A stretch of 64,000 nucleotides of DNA, taken from IMG/VR virus record IMGVR_UViG_3300032524_000070. One strand, written 5' to 3'. The notes beneath the pieces were generated by a model that did no database searches, was not told the origin of the DNA, and saw only the letters and a list, made by a program, of their open reading frames with translations. Of this stretch, positions 3,307 through 34,987 are shown piece by piece (position 1 is the first letter of the stretch; every line of letters begins with the position of its first letter). Origin of the DNA: a virus. Made by a program: the position numbers and the translations under genes.

Positions 3307-4091
3307 TGAGTAGCCCCTTCCACACCTACGCGGGGATGCTGGAGCGTTCGACGCACCTCATCCACACGTACTTGCCGAACGATTCGGCGGTTGTGGGCTA
3401 CCAGTTCTGGGGTGCGGATACGGTCAACAACGCCTACGGGAACCCGGCAGCCAGTGGTGTCGGCGGCTCCGGCGTCGTGGCGATGTTCACGACCCCGTTC
3501 AACCAGACGTTCCGTTCCCCCACCCTCCGGCGGAAGGGCCTCGGCCTGGTGCCGGAGAACCGCCGGGGGATGACACACGCTCTGTTCGACCTGGACGACT
3601 ACATCGCGGTCGGGACGGCCATCCCGCCGGATGACCAGTGGCTCTACCTGCGGGTGCAGGAGAATCGCCGGACGGTGGGCTTGCTCGATCTGGCTGGTGC
3701 CCCGGCTGATCCGGTGCTGGGACCGATCTACTGCGTGCCTCCGGTCAAGAGCTTGGGGCTCTCGCAGCCGACCTTCACCTTGCAGGGAATCGCCCCCTCT
3801 GCCACGACGAGTACCGCAGGTGTTTTGCCGGTTTTCAGCGAGGATCTGACATCGGCGATTCCGCGTCCGCTTTTCCTGGTGCTGCCGTACCCGTTGTCGG
3901 AGTTCACCCTCGCAAATCTCGACGGGGCGAAGACCTTGCTCGTTTCTTTCGGTCCCGAACAGGCGATGCAGTCCATCGCTCCAGGGGGCGAGGTCCAGTT
4001 GTACTCCGGGTCTACAAAGGCCCTCGTGCTAGCGACTGCCGCCGCTGGTGGGTGTCCCTTCTCTCTTCACGGAGTCCTGGGACGATCTTGA
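3306..4091 (+). CDS. Putative virion structural protein, paralog family A (short form)
   Basis: Tandem paralog of 2095..3306; TGATG coupling. Confidence 0.7.
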   Translation: MSSPFHTYAGMLERSTHLIHTYLPNDSAVVGYQFWGADTVNNAYGNPAASGVGGSGVVAMFTTPFNQTFRSPTLRRKGLGLVPENRRGMTHALFDLDDYIAVGTAIPPDDQWLYLRVQENRRTVGLLDLAGAPADPVLGPIYCVPPVKSLGLSQPTFTLQGIAPSATTSTAGVLPVFSEDLTSAIPRPLFLVLPYPLSEFTLANLDGAKTLLVSFGPEQAMQSIAPGGEVQLYSGSTKALVLATAAAGGCPFSLHGVLGRS

Positions 4092-25044: not shown

Positions 25045-25943
25045 CACCTCTCCCCCAGGAGGCGTTCGAGCTTCGCCAGCAGCTCTGCCTTCTCCCGGCC
25101 CTTGCCGAGGCCGGACGCTTCGACGGCCTCTTCCTTCCAGTCCGCGAGGACATCCTCGATGGAGGGTCCGTTCGATGCCACCTGTCCCGCTCCGTAGCTG
25201 ATGAGCTTGCGGAGGGCATCCACGTCGAACCGGGACAGGTACATGCCGTTGAGCCGGTAGTCCTCGAACGCCTCCCAGGCCCACGGCACCCAGACCTTCA
25301 CGATCTCGGCGATGGCGATGGCGTAGGAGCGGATCTCCAACTGCGCGTGCGGGTCGAGCCGGAGGGAGAGGAAGTGGAAGAGGTTGTGGAGATCCTGGGC
25401 CCACACCTTCTTGGTGTAGATGTTCACGGGCAGGGCACAGCGGGCGATCTCTCGGGCCACTCCCGCGTCCAGGGATGCCTCGTAGCTCTTGTAGGCCGAT
25501 GTGCAGGTGTCCCGCAGGCGGTTGCGGTACGCCTCGACCGCCTGCTCTTCCATCAAGTCCTCCCGTCCTTGCTTGTTGGTGGCCGACTGAGCGCGAACGT
25601 CATCGGGGGCTGGGATGTAGAACTCCGAGGGGAGGATGCTGTACCGGGCCGACATCTCGTTCAGCGACGCCATGCGATGACGGACCCACTGTCGTTCCAC
25701 GAAGATGGGCAGCTTGACCTCCAGACGGATGCGGCACTGCTCGAACGGAGATGTGTGACGGCAACGCAGGAGGTACCGAAGCAGGTGCCTGTCCCCACTT
25801 GTGCGACGGGTACCCTCGGCATAGCTGACGCGGGCGGACTGGACGATGGTGTCGTCATCCCCCATCACGTCCAGCAACATGATGTAGCCGTGGTCGAGCA
25901 GTTTGATGGGCTCCGCGAAGCGTTCAAGATGAGCTGGGATCAT
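25044..25943 (-). CDS. thyX: Flavin-dependent thymidylate synthase
   Basis: SARVSY, HTSPFEQ, RHRMASLNEMSARY (RHRX7S), REIAR..LP, LRLDPHAQLEIR. Confidence 0.93.
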   Translation of the reverse strand: MIPAHLERFAEPIKLLDHGYIMLLDVMGDDDTIVQSARVSYAEGTRRTSGDRHLLRYLLRCRHTSPFEQCRIRLEVKLPIFVERQWVRHRMASLNEMSARYSILPSEFYIPAPDDVRAQSATNKQGREDLMEEQAVEAYRNRLRDTCTSAYKSYEASLDAGVAREIARCALPVNIYTKKVWAQDLHNLFHFLSLRLDPHAQLEIRSYAIAIAEIVKVWVPWAWEAFEDYRLNGMYLSRFDVDALRKLISYGAGQVASNGPSIEDVLADWKEEAVEASGLGKGREKAELLAKLERLLGER

Positions 25944-26568
25944 TCTCTGCCTTCTCTTCCGCGCGTCTTCGCTGTTGTCCTTCACGTAGACGCTGTCGAT
26001 GTTCTTCGGTGATTGCGGGTGGCTTCTTTCGGGTGGGGTGCTTCCGCCCGATCATCGCCTGCCGCAGCTTTTCCCTGGTGGCGTCACTACAGGCCTTACC
26101 CATCTTCTTGTAAGAAGGGTGCCCCTTGATGGCCTTACTGATGTTCGCGTTGTGCTCTGGGGTGTTCTTCCGCCCCTTGTGGGCATCGGACATTCTCTGC
26201 CGAGTCTCTGCCGATGCCTTCCGGCCCAGACCGGCTTTCCGCAGCTTCTCCCGAGTCTCATCCGAGACAGGCAGATGCCAGACACCATCCCCGCCGAGGG
26301 TCAGGTTGTAGCCCCCTTGTGATACGTGCGTCTGGTGTTCTCGAATGGCTGCCATCTCCCCAGCCTTGAGCAGGTCGATGTCAGTGATCTCGATGAGCAC
26401 CTGGACATCGAATGAAGGCCACCCGTACTTTCGGATGGCCTTGTGGATCAGGAACGGGCTGCCATTCCGGGCCAGACTACGATGCTCCTTGAGCCGTTTC
26501 GGCAGGCTCATCGTGATCCCGATGTACGCCTTCCCGTGGGGGGCGACCAGCTTGTAGATGCAGCCCAT
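25924..26568 (-). mobile_element. GIY-YIG homing endonuclease with NUMOD3 repeats
   Basis: CIYKL...AYIG, GYNLTLGGDG, SDETREKLR repeats; atypical codons; TTGGAA-17-TACCTT then ATG 6 nt later. Confidence 0.85.
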
Positions 26569-26683
26569 ACCGGCAAGGTACACCCGACCCGTCTATCTTC
26601 CAATGGCTCTCCGAATGCGGGGTGGTGTTCTGTCTATACCCGCAGGACTTGTAGAACCACTCGCCCTGCGTTGGAGGACGAAG

Positions 26684-30165: not shown

Positions 30166-30737
30166 TTGAAGCGGAGGTCACCTGTCAGTGCGTTCAGATC
30201 GCCCTGCCCGACCTGCGGTTGTCCATGGTGAACGGGCAGGTCGTCTACTTGGATGAAGCCGATGCCAAGGCGTCGGTGGACCTTCAACGGGCGTGGAGGG
30301 CAAAGGCCGTCATCGTCAAGTACATCCAGCGATTCAGAGAGCGGAGAGCCGCTCGGCTGGCCCTTCCCGCAGCCCCGGCTGCCTCGATGGTGGGATTCCT
30401 GCCGGAGATGGGCCAACCGGAGCAGACCGTGGTGGTCGATGTCGATGCGATTGCGGCACGGGTCGCAGAGCTGCTGGAGCCCCGCCTTGTCGCCAGCATC
30501 ACGGCCTCTGTGGTGGCCGCTCTGCGCTCCGAAGGCCCCGTGGTGACCGTTGGTGCGCCTGTAGCGTCCGCCCCTCCACAGACGGCCTGGGCGGATGCTC
30601 CGGTGTTCATCCCGTCGAGGATCGGCAACGAGCTGGAGGCTAACCTTGAACTCCAGGCGACCACGGCCACTGAGGGGGTAGTGTCTGACGCGGCTGCTGC
30701 CTTGCGGGCGGCCCGGAAGAAGCAGGAGCCGACATGA
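30162..30737 (+). CDS. Hypothetical protein
   Basis: ATGA overlaps on both sides. Confidence 0.6.
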   Translation: MIEAEVTCQCVQIALPDLRLSMVNGQVVYLDEADAKASVDLQRAWRAKAVIVKYIQRFRERRAARLALPAAPAASMVGFLPEMGQPEQTVVVDVDAIAARVAELLEPRLVASITASVVAALRSEGPVVTVGAPVASAPPQTAWADAPVFIPSRIGNELEANLELQATTATEGVVSDAAAALRAARKKQEPT

Positions 30738-31738
30738 GCAAGAAAAAGACCCTCGGGGTCGGGCTGGACATCGGGACGATGAACATCGTCTCCGCTCGCA
30801 GCGTCGGTGGCAGCATCGAGACGAAGCGGATGCGGGACGCCTTCATGTCCATGCCCCCGAACAAGACCCGGATGCTCAAGCTCTCGCAGACCAGCTTCGT
30901 CGAGCGTGAACATGACGTGCTCCTCCTGGGCGACGCAGCGATGGAGATGGCCAACGTATTCGGCGGCAACCCCCGCCGTCCCCTGGCCGGTGGGCTCATC
31001 GCTGCCGGGGAGTCCGATGCCCTGAGCGTGTTGAAGCTCCTGATCAAGAACGTGCTCGGGGAGCCGCAGATCGAGAACGAGGTCTGCTACTTCAGCGTCC
31101 CGGCCCCACCCCTCGACCAGCCCGGCAAGGACATCATCTACCACCGTGGGGTCTTCGAGCGCATCGTCGAGGAGTGCGGGTTCGACCCCTTCCCCGCCAA
31201 CGAGGCGATGGCCATCATCTTCTCCGAGTGCGCTGCCGAGGGCTTCAGCGGTCTGTCCTTCAGCTTCGGCTCCGGGATGACCAACGTCGCGCTCGCGCTG
31301 AACACGACCGAGGTGCTGTCCTTCTCCGTCCAGCGAGGCGGTGACTGGATCGATGAGCACGCAGCTCAGGCGGTGGGGATGACCCAGGCTCAGATGTGCG
31401 CCCTCAAGGAGGGTGGCATCGACCTGATGACCCACGCGACGCAGCCGGAGGAGGCGGTCGCCCTGTACTACAAGGCGATGATCGACTTCGCCCTGGACCA
31501 GGTGGCGGCCCACTTCGTCGCGCAGTCCGGCCAGTTCACCTTCCCCAAGCCCATCCCCATCATCGTGTCCGGTGGGACGAGCATGGCGGGCGGGTTCCTC
31601 GATTTCTTCAACAACGTCTGGCGCAAGAAGAAGCGGAAGTTCCCCATCGAGGTCAGCGAGATCCGCTCGGCCAAGGACCCGCTCAACGCGGTGGCGTTCG
31701 GGATGCTCATCCAGGCGATGCAGGAGTACGAGGAGTGA
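30734..31738 (+). CDS. Actin-fold ATPase (MreB/MamK/ParM-like)
   Basis: Phosphate-1 GLDIGT, NEAMA, phosphate-2 SFGSGMTN, GGDWID, adenosine VSGGTS. Confidence 0.85.
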   Translation: MSKKKTLGVGLDIGTMNIVSARSVGGSIETKRMRDAFMSMPPNKTRMLKLSQTSFVEREHDVLLLGDAAMEMANVFGGNPRRPLAGGLIAAGESDALSVLKLLIKNVLGEPQIENEVCYFSVPAPPLDQPGKDIIYHRGVFERIVEECGFDPFPANEAMAIIFSECAAEGFSGLSFSFGSGMTNVALALNTTEVLSFSVQRGGDWIDEHAAQAVGMTQAQMCALKEGGIDLMTHATQPEEAVALYYKAMIDFALDQVAAHFVAQSGQFTFPKPIPIIVSGGTSMAGGFLDFFNNVWRKKKRKFPIEVSEIRSAKDPLNAVAFGMLIQAMQEYEE

Positions 31739-32229
31739 CCGATTTCACCCAGGTCCACCACCTGCTCTGCGACCCGGAGCGGCCCGTGCCGAAGGACGGG
31801 GTGGACTACAGGTTCACCTGTGCATCGAAGTGCGACAACGAACTGACGTGGGCCTGTACGGGCTCAGAACACCGTGCCGGGCTGGAGATCATCTGCACCT
31901 GCCCGTGCCACCAGGAGATTCCATCCGTGACCACCATCAAGAGCTTCGACGCAGCGTATGTGACCCCGGACGGGAAGATGAACGTGGAGGGGTTGGTGCT
32001 CAACCCCTCCACGGCGACGACGAAGGCCCGTGTCCGTGTCACCGTCGAGATCCTCGACTGCCCGGAGGTCGGTGACACCAGCTACTCGTTCACCCTCGAC
32101 GAGGCGGTCATCTCGAACAGCCGCGAGGTGAAGCAGGTCGAGCTGCCGGACGGTGGGTACGAGCTGGTGTCCAGCCCGGATGTCACCTGGTCGATCACGG
32201 GCACGGAGCTGGACGTTCCGAGCCACTGA
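31735..32229 (+). CDS. Hypothetical protein
   Basis: GTGA overlap; Cys-rich N-terminus; alternative GTG at 31927. Confidence 0.5.
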   Translation: MTDFTQVHHLLCDPERPVPKDGVDYRFTCASKCDNELTWACTGSEHRAGLEIICTCPCHQEIPSVTTIKSFDAAYVTPDGKMNVEGLVLNPSTATTKARVRVTVEILDCPEVGDTSYSFTLDEAVISNSREVKQVELPDGGYELVSSPDVTWSITGTELDVPSH

Positions 32230-32254
32230 TCCGCCTATCAGCGGCGGGAGGTAG

Positions 32255-33133
32255 ATGTACTTCCAGCTAACCGAGTTCCGGCCGGTAGTTCTCCTATCAC
32301 CTTCGTCAGTTGAAGGTACGGAGACCCACATGCCATCTCGCAAGCACCACCTCATCGACAAGAGCCTCCTCACCAGACTCTATTTTGATGAGGAACGGTC
32401 ACTTCGAGCCATCGTGGTGGCAACTGGGACGAACTACCGCCTGGTCAGGGACTCTTTCAAAGCACATGGGTTGTCCTGGCGGTCGAAGTCGGAGGCTCGT
32501 GCTGGTCGGCCTTGGGACGATGTCACCAGGGCCAAAATCGCTTCCACAAGGTCAGGACAGAAAGATGCTCCTGAGGTAGCCGCCCGAAAGCGGAGGCAAC
32601 TGTCCACTGCGGGCGGGCGCGGGTGGAACAAGGGGTTGACAGCGGCAACGGACGAGAGGGTCGCACGGCAGCGAGATGCTTCCGTTGTGGTTATGCATAC
32701 TCCAGAGTTCCGTGCTCGTGCATCGCAAGCTAAGGCGGCACAAATCGAAGCCGGAGGCTACTGGGACCGGGGCTACGTCGAGACCCAGAAGTCCGGGCGC
32801 TTGTACTTCATGTCCTCGTGGGAGAGGAGGCGTTGGCTTGAGCTGGATGCTGATCCCGATGTCGTGCAGTTCACTCGTCATCCGTGCCGTATCCCCTACC
32901 AGTGGGAGGGTAACCAGCATTTGTATCTGCCAGACGTGCTGATTGGGTACACCGATGGCAGCAAGGTGTTGGAGGAGATCAAGCCCCGAGCACTGCTAGA
33001 TCGTCCGCACAAGGGGCAGAGTCGTCTGCTCGCCAAGGTGCAAGCTGGAGTTGACCATGCAGCCTCTCAAGGCTGGGGTTGGCGGATCTTCTCGTATGAC
33101 GGAGAAGGGGGTGCGTCATTTATTTCCAGTTGA
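32255..33133 (+). mobile_element. TnsA-like PD-(D/E)XK homing endonuclease fused to the first 7 codons of the downstream gene
   Basis: GWNKGLT repeat; SSWERR...IPY...YLPDVLI...EEIKP; internal ATG 32330; lower-GC codons. Confidence 0.78.
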
Positions 33134-34311
33134 CCGAGGCGTTGAAGAGACGGTTCATCGAGGAGCTGCGACGCTACTGGTCGCAGCACCCGAAGTACCG
33201 TGACGACCTCGTGCAGAACATCCAGGGGAAGTTCAGCTTCAAGGAGAGGCCCCAGCACGGGATCATCATCAAGACCGGCTCGGGCAACCGGGTAGACCTC
33301 TCAGCCGACAACTACATCGGCGTGATCGAGTCCTACTGCCTGATGACCCGGGTGAAGAACAAGCCCGGCCTCTCGGTCGAGTGGGTCCGCGAGGACTCCG
33401 TCGCCATCCAGAACAACAACGGCTACTTCCCCTCGCCTCCCGGCCTCTACTACCTCGACGTGCAGGATGAGGACGGGAAGCTCGTCTTCTACGTGGACCC
33501 GCTCGTCGAGGTCTTCCACGAGCCCGTGAGCCTCATCACCCCGACGAGTGGCCAGCTCCAGCAGACCCCGGTGATCGGCAGCCTCCGGCTCTTCGAGCAG
33601 CCGTCCCGCTTCCAGCTCGTAGAGGGCGTGAACTACGACCTCGACGCCACAGGGGGCATCACCCTGACCAGCCCGTTGACGGGTGGCCGGTGGTTGCAGG
33701 CGGACTACCGCTACCCCACAGCATCAACGGGGCCGTACACCATCCACGAGATGCACGCGAACAACGTGGCCGTCCCCGGAGTGGTCATCGCCTTCGGTCG
33801 GCGAGCACAGGCGGGCGACCAGATTGCCATCATGGTCCACGACATCCGGCGGCCCGCCTACATGGAGTACGGCGGGAAGTGGGAGCTGACCCTCGACTGC
33901 GACGTGATGAGCCGGGATGTCCACGCCCAGCAGGAGATCGTGGACCAGACGGTCATCTACCTCTGGGGCGTGCTCCGGTCGCACCTCTCGCACAAGGGCA
34001 TCGAAATCACGGATGTCTCGATGGGCGGTGAGTCAGAGGAGGTCTACGACGAGAACGGTGACGACTACTTCTACAACGCCAACTTCACCATCACCTGCCA
34101 GACCGACTGGTCCATCCATGTCCCCATCGACGGCTGGATGCGGCAGGCAGCTCCCCTGACTCGCGCTCAGGCTGCCCAGATTGCTGCCCTCTCCGACGAT
34201 GAACTTCGGGGGGAGGACGGTAACATCGTGGGTCTGGAGGCCCTTGGCGTCGAAGCGATCCAGGACCCCTTCTGGTCCGGCCGCCGAGGAACCTTCGAGA
34301 TGGTGAAGTAG
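33118..34311 (+). CDS. Putative tail terminator/completion protein (start ATT 33118 or TTG 33130)
   Basis: Structural-operon context upstream of sheath; YFQLTE duplicated at 32258 and 33121. Confidence 0.55.
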   Translation: MYFQLTEALKRRFIEELRRYWSQHPKYRDDLVQNIQGKFSFKERPQHGIIIKTGSGNRVDLSADNYIGVIESYCLMTRVKNKPGLSVEWVREDSVAIQNNNGYFPSPPGLYYLDVQDEDGKLVFYVDPLVEVFHEPVSLITPTSGQLQQTPVIGSLRLFEQPSRFQLVEGVNYDLDATGGITLTSPLTGGRWLQADYRYPTASTGPYTIHEMHANNVAVPGVVIAFGRRAQAGDQIAIMVHDIRRPAYMEYGGKWELTLDCDVMSRDVHAQQEIVDQTVIYLWGVLRSHLSHKGIEITDVSMGGESEEVYDENGDDYFYNANFTITCQTDWSIHVPIDGWMRQAAPLTRAQAAQIAALSDDELRGEDGNIVGLEALGVEAIQDPFWSGRRGTFEMVK

Positions 34312-34319
34312 GAGCGAGC

Positions 34320-34559
34320 ATGGAAGAGGTCCGCCACAAGACGGCGAAGGCGTGGGTCGAGGCCATCGACAAGAGTCACGAGCTGGAGCCCGGCGACGAC
34401 GCCCGGCGGCGATGCCTCGGGTTCTTCGACCACACGGACGAGAAGCACCACATCCTGAGCATCACCCTGGCGAAAGCCACCGGCAAGGCGCTGGGTGATC
34501 AGAGGGAACTCCTGAAGACCCCGGAGGGCCGCGCGAAGCTCATCGAGGGCCGTGCCTGA
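34320..34559 (+). CDS. Hypothetical protein
   Basis: AGGAG RBS. Confidence 0.6.
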   Translation: MEEVRHKTAKAWVEAIDKSHELEPGDDARRRCLGFFDHTDEKHHILSITLAKATGKALGDQRELLKTPEGRAKLIEGRA

Positions 34560-34987
34560 TGCCCCTCTACACCTTCCAGTGCGAGTGCGGCGTCCAGTTC
34601 GATGCCCGTGCAGCCATCGCCGACCGGGAGCAGACGAAGCCCTGCCCCGCCTGCCCGGAGCAGGGCAGGCCCATCCCCCCGTCCGGTGTTCACGGTCACT
34701 TCAAGAAGGAGGTGACCGGCCCCGTGCCGCAGAACACGGGCATCCACGACCTCGACACGAAGATCGACCGCGTGATCGGGCAGTCCAGCCACCAGGGCTG
34801 GGAGGTGGCCGAGGGGCGGAAGCGGATGAAGGAGGAAGTCATGCACCGTGAAGGCGTCACGGGCCACGACCTCTCCAAGAATCTCGACGGCTCCTACCGG
34901 GTGCTCAAGCCCGAAGAACGGGGTCTGCATGAACGCAGTCAGGCGATCCACCAGGCTGCGGGCGAGCGCAACAAGCCCAAGGGGTAG
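34559..34987 (+). CDS. FmdB-like zinc-ribbon protein
   Basis: MPLYTFQCECG...CPAC. Confidence 0.75.
   Translation: MPLYTFQCECGVQFDARAAIADREQTKPCPACPEQGRPIPPSGVHGHFKKEVTGPVPQNTGIHDLDTKIDRVIGQSSHQGWEVAEGRKRMKEEVMHREGVTGHDLSKNLDGSYRVLKPEERGLHERSQAIHQAAGERNKPKG

What the first reader, a model, noticed from the sequence alone, without database searches (positions are those of the whole stretch)
32235..33160. Endonuclease captures a structural gene's start and supplies a recoded replacement N-terminus
Seen: ATG TAC TTC CAG CTA ACC GAG (MYFQLTE, 32255) runs in frame into a TnsA-like nuclease. At the far end, ATT TAT TTC CAG TTG ACC GAG (IYFQLTE, 33118) continues into the structural gene. The peptide is duplicated with synonymous changes and has no ATG: only ATT, or TTG overlapping the nuclease stop (TTGA). 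There is no room for a group I/II intron core. Inference: intron-less homing that hijacks the late promoter and RBS and restarts the host gene at a non-canonical codon. Splicing or ribosomal bypass between the matched codons is a less likely alternative.
Basis: partly seen in the sequence, partly recalled or inferred. Interest (0 to 1): 0.75.

Follow-up and report, generated by a model that had tools for sequence, protein, structure and literature searches.

The report
Homing nuclease carrying replacement gene start
A selfish DNA-cutting gene has inserted seven codons into an essential tail gene of a giant uncultured phage and keeps that gene working by bringing its own ribosome-binding site and first codons, usually with a rare ATT start codon; this intron-free trick is known from fungal mitochondria, but I found no description of it in phages.

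Summary
The structural gene has a tail-terminator fold. The empty allele (95% identical protein) has the same upstream gene and starts MYFQLTEALKRR. The insert encodes an HTH plus TnsA-like PD-(D/E)xK nuclease. It lies at this same junction in all 19 distinct loci with DNA, is patchy on the host tree, and its own tree conflicts with the host's. One occupied/empty pair is 99.5-100% identical except for the insert and the first 27 nt of the restarted gene, so the element carries a foreign gene start; this is not a target-site duplication. (1) The nuclease has its own conserved ATG (32330), RBS and promoter-like motif, and fusion to the old start is open in only 4 of 11 stub-bearing loci. (2) Splicing and bypass are very unlikely. 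The ATT start is well supported: ATT/ATC in 13/19 occupied loci against about 11% background, behind strong Shine-Dalgarno sites. Cleavage, transcription and initiation are untested. It works like fungal mitochondrial mORFs. This scan has reported the same architecture in many other genomes, with other nucleases.

The parts
31735..32229 (+). Upstream 164-aa gene, also upstream of the empty allele (64-65% aa identity in L001/L002)
32227..32238 (+). Native promoter-like motif ending in CCTAT (function inferred); CCTAT lies within 150 nt upstream of the host start in 21/56 nuclease-free alleles versus 10% of control windows
   Evidence: genome-wide control inconclusive
32247..32252 (+). Original Shine-Dalgarno of the tail-terminator gene (only 2 nt from ATG; predicted to pair with codons 2-3)
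32255..32275 (+). Stranded original start of the host gene (codons 1-7, MYFQLTE); in this phage happens to be in an open frame with the nuclease
32276..33148 (+). Mobile element: left junction after codon 7; right junction approximate, about nt 27-31 of the restarted gene
   Evidence: window vs L001/L002; L041 vs L037
32286..32297 (+). Element's own copy of the promoter-like motif; a [CG]CTAT core lies within 55 nt of the nuclease start in 11/15 occupied loci
32299..32317 (+). Predicted 7-bp hairpin between the motif and the nuclease RBS (RBS GGAG at 32320-32323)
32330..33133 (+). Nuclease gene, 267 aa from its own ATG: N-terminal HTH, helical linker, C-terminal TnsA-like PD-(D/E)xK domain with invariant E165, P201, D202, E215, E216, K218
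33105..33113 (+). Replacement Shine-Dalgarno inside the nuclease 3' end (-13.7 kcal/mol duplex, 4 nt before ATT)
33118..33148 (+). Replacement N-terminus carried by the element, starting at ATT (8 mismatches to the empty allele in 31 nt)
33118..34311 (+). Host gene, 397 aa, tail-terminator (tail completion) fold; residues 2-22 form a helix of the fold

Best explanation
A free-standing, intron-less homing-endonuclease cassette specialised for the 5' end of the tail-terminator gene in a clade of giant myophages. SHOWN by comparison: one insertion point (after nt 21-25 of the gene) in all loci that keep the stub; occupied and empty sister alleles; a foreign SD plus codons 1-9 travelling with the nuclease; horizontal movement; decay and loss stages. 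INFERRED: in a co-infection the nuclease cuts an empty allele near codons 7-8. Recombinational repair from the donor, using homology upstream of the gene and downstream of about codon 9-10, copies the cassette. The recipient's old start is left as a stub and the gene is translated from the new SD and ATT codon on a transcript that reads through the nuclease gene. No splicing is needed. The nuclease is made mainly from its own ATG at 32330; the 292-aa fusion is incidental. The donor escapes cutting because the stub lacks the right half of the site and the restart copy has a new upstream context and changed bases.
For: Empty allele L001/L002 with the same upstream gene and RBS. L041 (occupied) vs L037 (empty): 597/600 nt identical upstream, 870/870 from nt 31 to 900 of the gene, all 10 differences within the first 27 nt of the restart; relatives L078 and L052 share L037's residues, so L041's are foreign. 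Same site in all 19 distinct loci with DNA and in two more shown by gene order. Patchy on the host tree, with sister pairs WIN/L001, L041/L037, L103/L058, L091/L008, L095/L027. Nuclease tree joins the window with L081 (SH-aLRT 97) while the host tree joins it with L010/L091 (100); window and L081 share the SD-ATT junction although their hosts are 54% identical. Remnants of the nuclease 3' end in L003, L004/5, L022, L023, and an internally deleted copy in L046. Nuclease GC3 0.64 vs 0.89 for the host gene. Codons 2-5 after ATT/ATC keep Y-F/Y-x-L/I with synonymous variation in 17/17 alleles. Architecture like T4 homing endonucleases: DNA-binding domain plus nuclease domain, promoter plus hairpin (PMC2988022).
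Against: TnsA-like nucleases are not an established homing family in the papers I could search. Trees are quick SH-aLRT only, and the deeper nuclease and host clades largely agree, so transfer is mostly among close relatives. The promoter assignment is not proven. In this phage some nuclease could be made from the old ATG.
Confidence: 0.85

Rival explanations
1. Same homing cassette, but the host gene restarts at TTG 33130 by translational coupling to the nuclease stop (TTGA overlap), losing four residues.
For: TTG overlaps the nuclease stop in the window; gene callers choose it; coupling is known for phage homing endonucleases (PMC2988022).
Against: Codon 5 is TTG in only 5 of 17 ATT/ATC alleles; the nuclease stop lies from -14 to +28 relative to the start; codons 2-4 stay conserved; the SD is spaced for ATT; L125 has a strong SD (GGAGGTG) 4 nt before ATT with a stop just upstream.
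Confidence: 0.06
2. The insert is an RNA-level intervening sequence (self-splicing intron) or is skipped by ribosomal bypass between matched codons, so the old ATG still starts the host protein.
For: Matched codons exist in both copies (TTC, CAG, ACC, GAG); the old RBS and ATG are retained in this phage.
Against: No Rfam intron match; only 54 non-coding nt; the stub is missing in 6 occupied loci and degenerate in one; no stop after a take-off codon and an 863-nt gap versus 50 nt in T4 gene 60 (PMC5009743); a strong new SD would be unnecessary.
Confidence: 0.03
3. The nuclease is a phage-serving accessory protein (such as a T4 gp4-like head-completion nuclease or an anti-competitor nuclease) that happens to sit here, and the duplication is a by-product of illegitimate recombination.
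For: PHROG 218 'head closure' hit, E 8e-11; location in the neck/tail module.
Against: Absent from 56 of 72 distinct alleles in the host-seeded set, including 95-99% identical sisters; fixed insertion point inside a gene; repeated decay; foreign gene start co-transferred.
Confidence: 0.05
4. A transposon-like element (Tn7/TnsA-type or IS) with a target-site duplication.
For: TnsA-like catalytic domain; direct repeat at both ends.
Against: No TnsB/TnsC or other transposase in the 873-nt element; no terminal inverted repeats; the repeats are non-identical even in a very recent insertion, and the downstream copy differs from the recipient allele.
Confidence: 0.01

Closest known systems
Mobile endonuclease ORFs (mORFs) of fungal mitochondria that create gene hybrids: Allomyces macrogynus atp6; Glomus atp6, atp9, cox2, nad3 (PMC3630166)
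   Same: Intron-less endonuclease inserted in a coding sequence, carrying a foreign gene terminus that keeps the gene whole and leaves the native terminus stranded.
   Different: There the replaced part is the C-terminus (50-240 nt) and the nucleases are LAGLIDADG/GIY-YIG. Here it is the SD plus about 9 N-terminal codons, the nuclease is TnsA-like PD-(D/E)xK, the host is a phage, and the start is usually ATT/ATC.
[quoted passage not shown]
   Same: Mobile insert associated with a duplicated, diverged N-terminal part of the host gene; most were not spliced when tested.
   Different: Described as introns or intron-derived, with exon-sized duplications; no bacterial RBS or non-canonical start.
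Free-standing phage homing endonucleases and intronless homing: T4 Seg/Mob, Aeh1 mobE, seg43(25) (PMC2988022)
   Same: No intron; DNA-binding plus nuclease domains; patchy distribution; co-conversion; promoter-like motif followed by a hairpin at the RBS; host expression signals embedded in the nuclease gene (like gene 32 promoters in segG).
   Different: T4 examples are GIY-YIG/HNH, mostly intergenic, and cut hundreds to thousands of bp away. This one sits inside the gene's first codons and replaces them.
T4 mobA / gene 39-60 cassette (PMC5009743)
   Same: Endonuclease inserted in an essential gene, which survives through a new translation arrangement.
   Different: There the gene is split into two proteins and protected by a 50-nt bypassed insert; here one whole protein is restored and no bypass signals are seen.
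Tn7 TnsA (PDB 1t0f)
   Same: Closest solved fold of the catalytic domain (VIA-align Z 11.2, rmsd 3.9, 127 aligned; Foldseek E 1e-5).
   Different: Only the catalytic domain is shared (17% identity); no TnsB/C/D or transposon ends.

Membership tests
Free-standing homing endonuclease (intronless homing) | Nuclease domain with intact catalytic residues plus DNA-binding domain | tested here: met
   PD...E(I/V)K and E165 invariant in 33 proteins; N-terminal HTH
Free-standing homing endonuclease (intronless homing) | Fixed insertion site with occupied and empty alleles among close relatives | tested here: met
Free-standing homing endonuclease (intronless homing) | Horizontal movement and co-conversion of flanking sequence | tested here: met
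   L041/L037 pair; nuclease/host tree conflict with quick trees
Free-standing homing endonuclease (intronless homing) | Site-specific cleavage of the empty allele, immunity of the occupied allele, biased inheritance | not testable with these tools
   needs biochemistry or crosses
Fungal-type mORF gene-hybrid element | Carries a foreign gene terminus in frame with the rest of the gene; native terminus stranded | tested here: met
   stub matches the empty sister, restart does not
Fungal-type mORF gene-hybrid element | LAGLIDADG/GIY-YIG nuclease in mitochondrial DNA replacing the C-terminus | tested here: not met
   TnsA-like nuclease, phage, N-terminus; works like it but is not a member
Group I/II intron | Ribozyme core recognisable by covariance models, with room outside the ORF | tested here: not met
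   no Rfam hit near threshold; 54 non-coding nt; 5' exon absent in 6 loci
Group I/II intron | Spliced RNA | not testable with these tools
T4 gene 60-type bypass | Stop codon right after the take-off codon and a short gap | tested here: not met
   frame open for 292 codons; 807-872 nt between copies
Tn7-like transposon | TnsB/TnsC partners, terminal inverted repeats, identical 5-bp target duplication | tested here: not met

The most novel reading that the evidence does not exclude
TnsA-like PD-(D/E)xK proteins form an uncharacterised homing-endonuclease family (about 2,600 relatives at E<=1e-10), and this member's target includes the host gene's start codon, so the element protects itself by changing ATG/GTG to ATT/ATC and compensates with a strong SD. 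Hints: all 11 stubs begin with ATG or GTG; 15 of 19 restarts do not; three of the four restarts that keep ATG/GTG change the amino acid at codon 4 instead. It would mean selfish nucleases drive non-canonical start codons into essential phage genes.
Probability: 0.3. Interest if true: 0.75.

Novelty: new variant of a known kind. Interest (0 to 1): 0.55.

Why it matters
It shows an intron-free, intein-free way for a homing nuclease to occupy the coding sequence of an essential phage gene, with each stage visible in natural alleles: empty, just invaded, stub lost, nuclease deleted, scar only. It points to a probable new catalytic class of homing endonuclease with a target predicted to within a few bases, so a cleavage assay is easy to design. 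It gives a testable reason for rare ATT/ATC start codons. Practically, gene callers mis-annotate both genes here: the nuclease is extended or the tail terminator is truncated or over-extended.

Tried and rejected
No whole genome is held. A single-sequence scan for the nuclease found nothing; alignments worked. Rfam: only chance hits. The genome-wide test of the CCTAT motif as a promoter was inconclusive: 59% outside ORFs versus 21-64% for control motifs. The idea that all nuclease-free ATT/ATC alleles are scars of a lost nuclease holds only for L046; L014, L021, L025, L030 and L036 score at background. The idea that ATT/ATC is unique to the element is rejected: the neighbouring FmdB-like gene uses it in 7/63 loci. 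The careful host tree did not finish; the quick one was used. One distant relative (P0051/L119) lies between genes and I saw no duplicated start by eye, so generality beyond this subfamily is not shown. The original Paquin 1994 and Bonocora 2011 papers were not held; they are cited through PMC3630166 and PMC5009743. Paper searches found no TnsA-like homing endonuclease and no phage case of N-terminal replacement; the library is incomplete. No cultured close relative: best isolate hit is 27% identical, so the host is unknown.

Full report
Observation. The window shows ATG 32255 (MYFQLTE) opening a 292-codon frame to 33133, and ATT 33118 (IYFQLTE) opening a 397-codon frame to 34311. The hexapeptide occurs nowhere else in the six frames of the window. 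The two 21-nt copies differ at four positions. Four other contigs are identical across the region. The C-terminal third of the first ORF is Pfam Tn7_TnsA-like_N. The surroundings are the structural module of a large GC-rich myophage, with a volactin-like gene, an FmdB-like gene and a tail sheath; related contigs reach 536 kb.

The host gene. An AlphaFold model from 38 homologs (pLDDT 80.5) matches phage tail terminators: phage 812 neck Z 14.3, T5 p142 Z 13.5, lambda gpU Z 11.9. The only isolate hit is annotated 'tail terminator' (27% identity). Structural alignments begin at residues 1-6 and residues 2-22 form a helix, so the first codons probably cannot be lost. That tail terminators are essential rests on general knowledge of tailed phages.

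Empty alleles. Eighty loci were fetched. L001/L002 (95% identical protein) have the same upstream gene and the same RBS, then MYFQLTEALKRR without interruption. Against this allele the window's left junction follows codon 7 (32275/32276), and eight mismatches fall in the first 31 nt of the restarted gene.

The decisive pair. L041 (occupied) and L037 (empty) are 597/600 identical upstream and 870/870 identical from nt 31 to 900 of the gene. The L041 stub equals the L037 start for 23 nt. The restarted copy differs at 10 positions, all within its first 27 nt, and changes amino acids (MYFFLTEGV versus VYFHLTEAT). Relatives L078 and L052 share the L037 residues. The element therefore arrived recently with a foreign copy of codons 1-9. 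This excludes a target-site duplication and makes L037 unlikely to be a product of deletion between the repeats.

The nuclease family. Profile searches gave 33 near-full-length relatives at 40-72% identity with invariant catalytic residues and a wider family of 2,577 clusters at E<=1e-10. The model (pLDDT 87.6) has an N-terminal HTH and a C-terminal domain closest to TnsA (Z 11.2). Every close relative with context sits directly before the tail terminator. Almost all begin at a shared MPP/MPS-type start equal to ATG 32330. Of 19 distinct occupied loci, 11 keep a clear stub. The stub reads through into the nuclease in four (window, L041, L085, L124) and is stopped or out of frame in seven (L010, L081, L091, L095, L097, L106, L125). 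It is degenerate in L103, absent in six (L092, L094, L096, L102, L105, L118), and L022 is only a remnant. Stub similarity always ends at about nt 21-25. Capture of the start as a fusion is thus incidental.

Regulatory anatomy. A CCTAT motif lies upstream of the host start in 21/56 nuclease-free alleles (10% background), and a [CG]CTAT copy lies upstream of the nuclease start in 11/15 occupied loci, usually followed by a hairpin beside or covering the RBS. This resembles the late promoter plus hairpin of T4-type homing endonucleases (PMC2988022). A genome-wide control did not separate the motif from all control motifs, so the promoter role is inferred only.

Mobility. On the host tree (first 12 residues removed) occupied alleles are scattered among empty ones, with five sister pairs. 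The nuclease tree joins the window with L081 (97), whereas the host tree joins it with L010 and L091 (100). Window and L081 share the SD-ATT junction although their hosts are 54% identical. Decay stages are seen: only the nuclease 3' end survives in L003, L004/L005, L022 and L023, and L046 has a 48-codon internally deleted copy. Both trees are quick SH-aLRT trees.

The start codon. In the window a TGA at 33097 closes the host frame, and a 9-nt SD (-13.7 kcal/mol) ends 4 nt before ATT. ATT/ATC begins the restart in 11/16 occupied versus 6/56 nuclease-free alleles (Fisher p 1e-5, not corrected for relatedness), and in 13/19 after adding L118, L124 and L125. In three of five sister pairs the occupied allele has ATT/ATC and the empty one a canonical codon, never the reverse. 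SDs before ATT/ATC are stronger (mean -11.1 versus -7.5 for ATG). Codons 2-5 are conserved with synonymous variation, and TTG at codon 5 is not. In eight loci the ATT/ATC lies outside the nuclease ORF, so overlap does not force it. AUU/AUC starts are known in bacteria (infC) and are usually weak (PMC5499595). This phage clade also uses them at the neighbouring FmdB-like gene in 7/63 loci, so the codon is tolerated lineage-wide and enriched about six-fold behind the nuclease. Because the start travels with the element, these are not independent origins; what is notable is its retention across nucleases only 40-65% identical. It may give immunity to cutting (all 11 stubs start ATG/GTG, 15/19 restarts do not) or keep a low-copy protein low; the data do not decide.

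Mechanism. Most likely (0.85) a free-standing homing endonuclease cuts empty alleles near codons 7-8, and double-strand-break repair copies the cassette together with its SD and first codons. Position, boundaries, co-transfer and decay are shown by comparison; cleavage, immunity, promoter use and ATT initiation are inferred. Splicing and bypass fail their tests: no ribozyme core, no 5' exon in six loci, no stop after a take-off codon, and an 863-nt gap against 50 nt in T4 gene 60 (PMC5009743). Transposition fails for lack of partner genes, inverted repeats or an identical duplication.

Comparison and novelty. It works like fungal mitochondrial mORFs, which carry a foreign C-terminus (PMC3630166), and like the Tremella N-terminal duplications (PMC7315562), but it is not a member of either. 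It fits free-standing phage homing endonucleases in every feature I could test. I found no paper on a TnsA-like homing nuclease or on N-terminal replacement in phages. Earlier unchecked notes of this scan describe the same architecture in at least 27 genomes with other nucleases, one with an ATT start; they gave me the mORF comparison, which I checked in the paper. Verdict: real, new variant of a known kind, interest 0.55.

Noticed in passing
window 30734-31738 (+): Volactin-family actin homolog (Pfam PF25216, E 3e-69) in the structural module, conserved in most related phage loci; volactin is described from haloarchaea and a search found no paper on it in viruses.
   Followed up: partly
window 34559-34987 (+) and homologs L004, L034, L036, L044, L051, L078, L112: The FmdB-like zinc-ribbon gene starts with ATT/ATC behind good SDs in 7 of 63 loci, suggesting lineage-wide non-canonical initiation.
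   Followed up: partly
window 25924-26583 (-): A second free-standing nuclease, GIY-YIG with NUMOD3, just upstream of the ORF at 25985-25044 (-), which it overlaps; not checked for a replacement start.
   Followed up: no
L046 about 3848-3994: 48-codon mini-ORF joining the N- and C-terminal ends of the nuclease: an internally deleted element that keeps the ATC restart.
   Followed up: partly
L078 3321-4016; L019 2474-4000: Other endonuclease-like ORFs abut the same host start: a GIY-YIG-like ORF overlapping it by 16 nt in L078, and a 508-aa cysteine-repeat ORF in L019 (read, not searched). The site may be a hotspot for unrelated nucleases.
   Followed up: no
window 32246-32264 and L001/L002: The native SD is only 2 nt from ATG and is predicted to pair with codons 2-3, consistent with deliberately low expression of the tail terminator.
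   Followed up: no
window 8256 and 14688 (+): Two more intergenic CCTAT motifs about 30-45 nt before SD plus ATG; candidate promoters of the same type.
   Followed up: partly
L004 and L008, just upstream of the volactin gene: A related 260-aa ORF with nuclease-like C-terminus ends at the volactin start in both loci; possibly another homing endonuclease.
   Followed up: no
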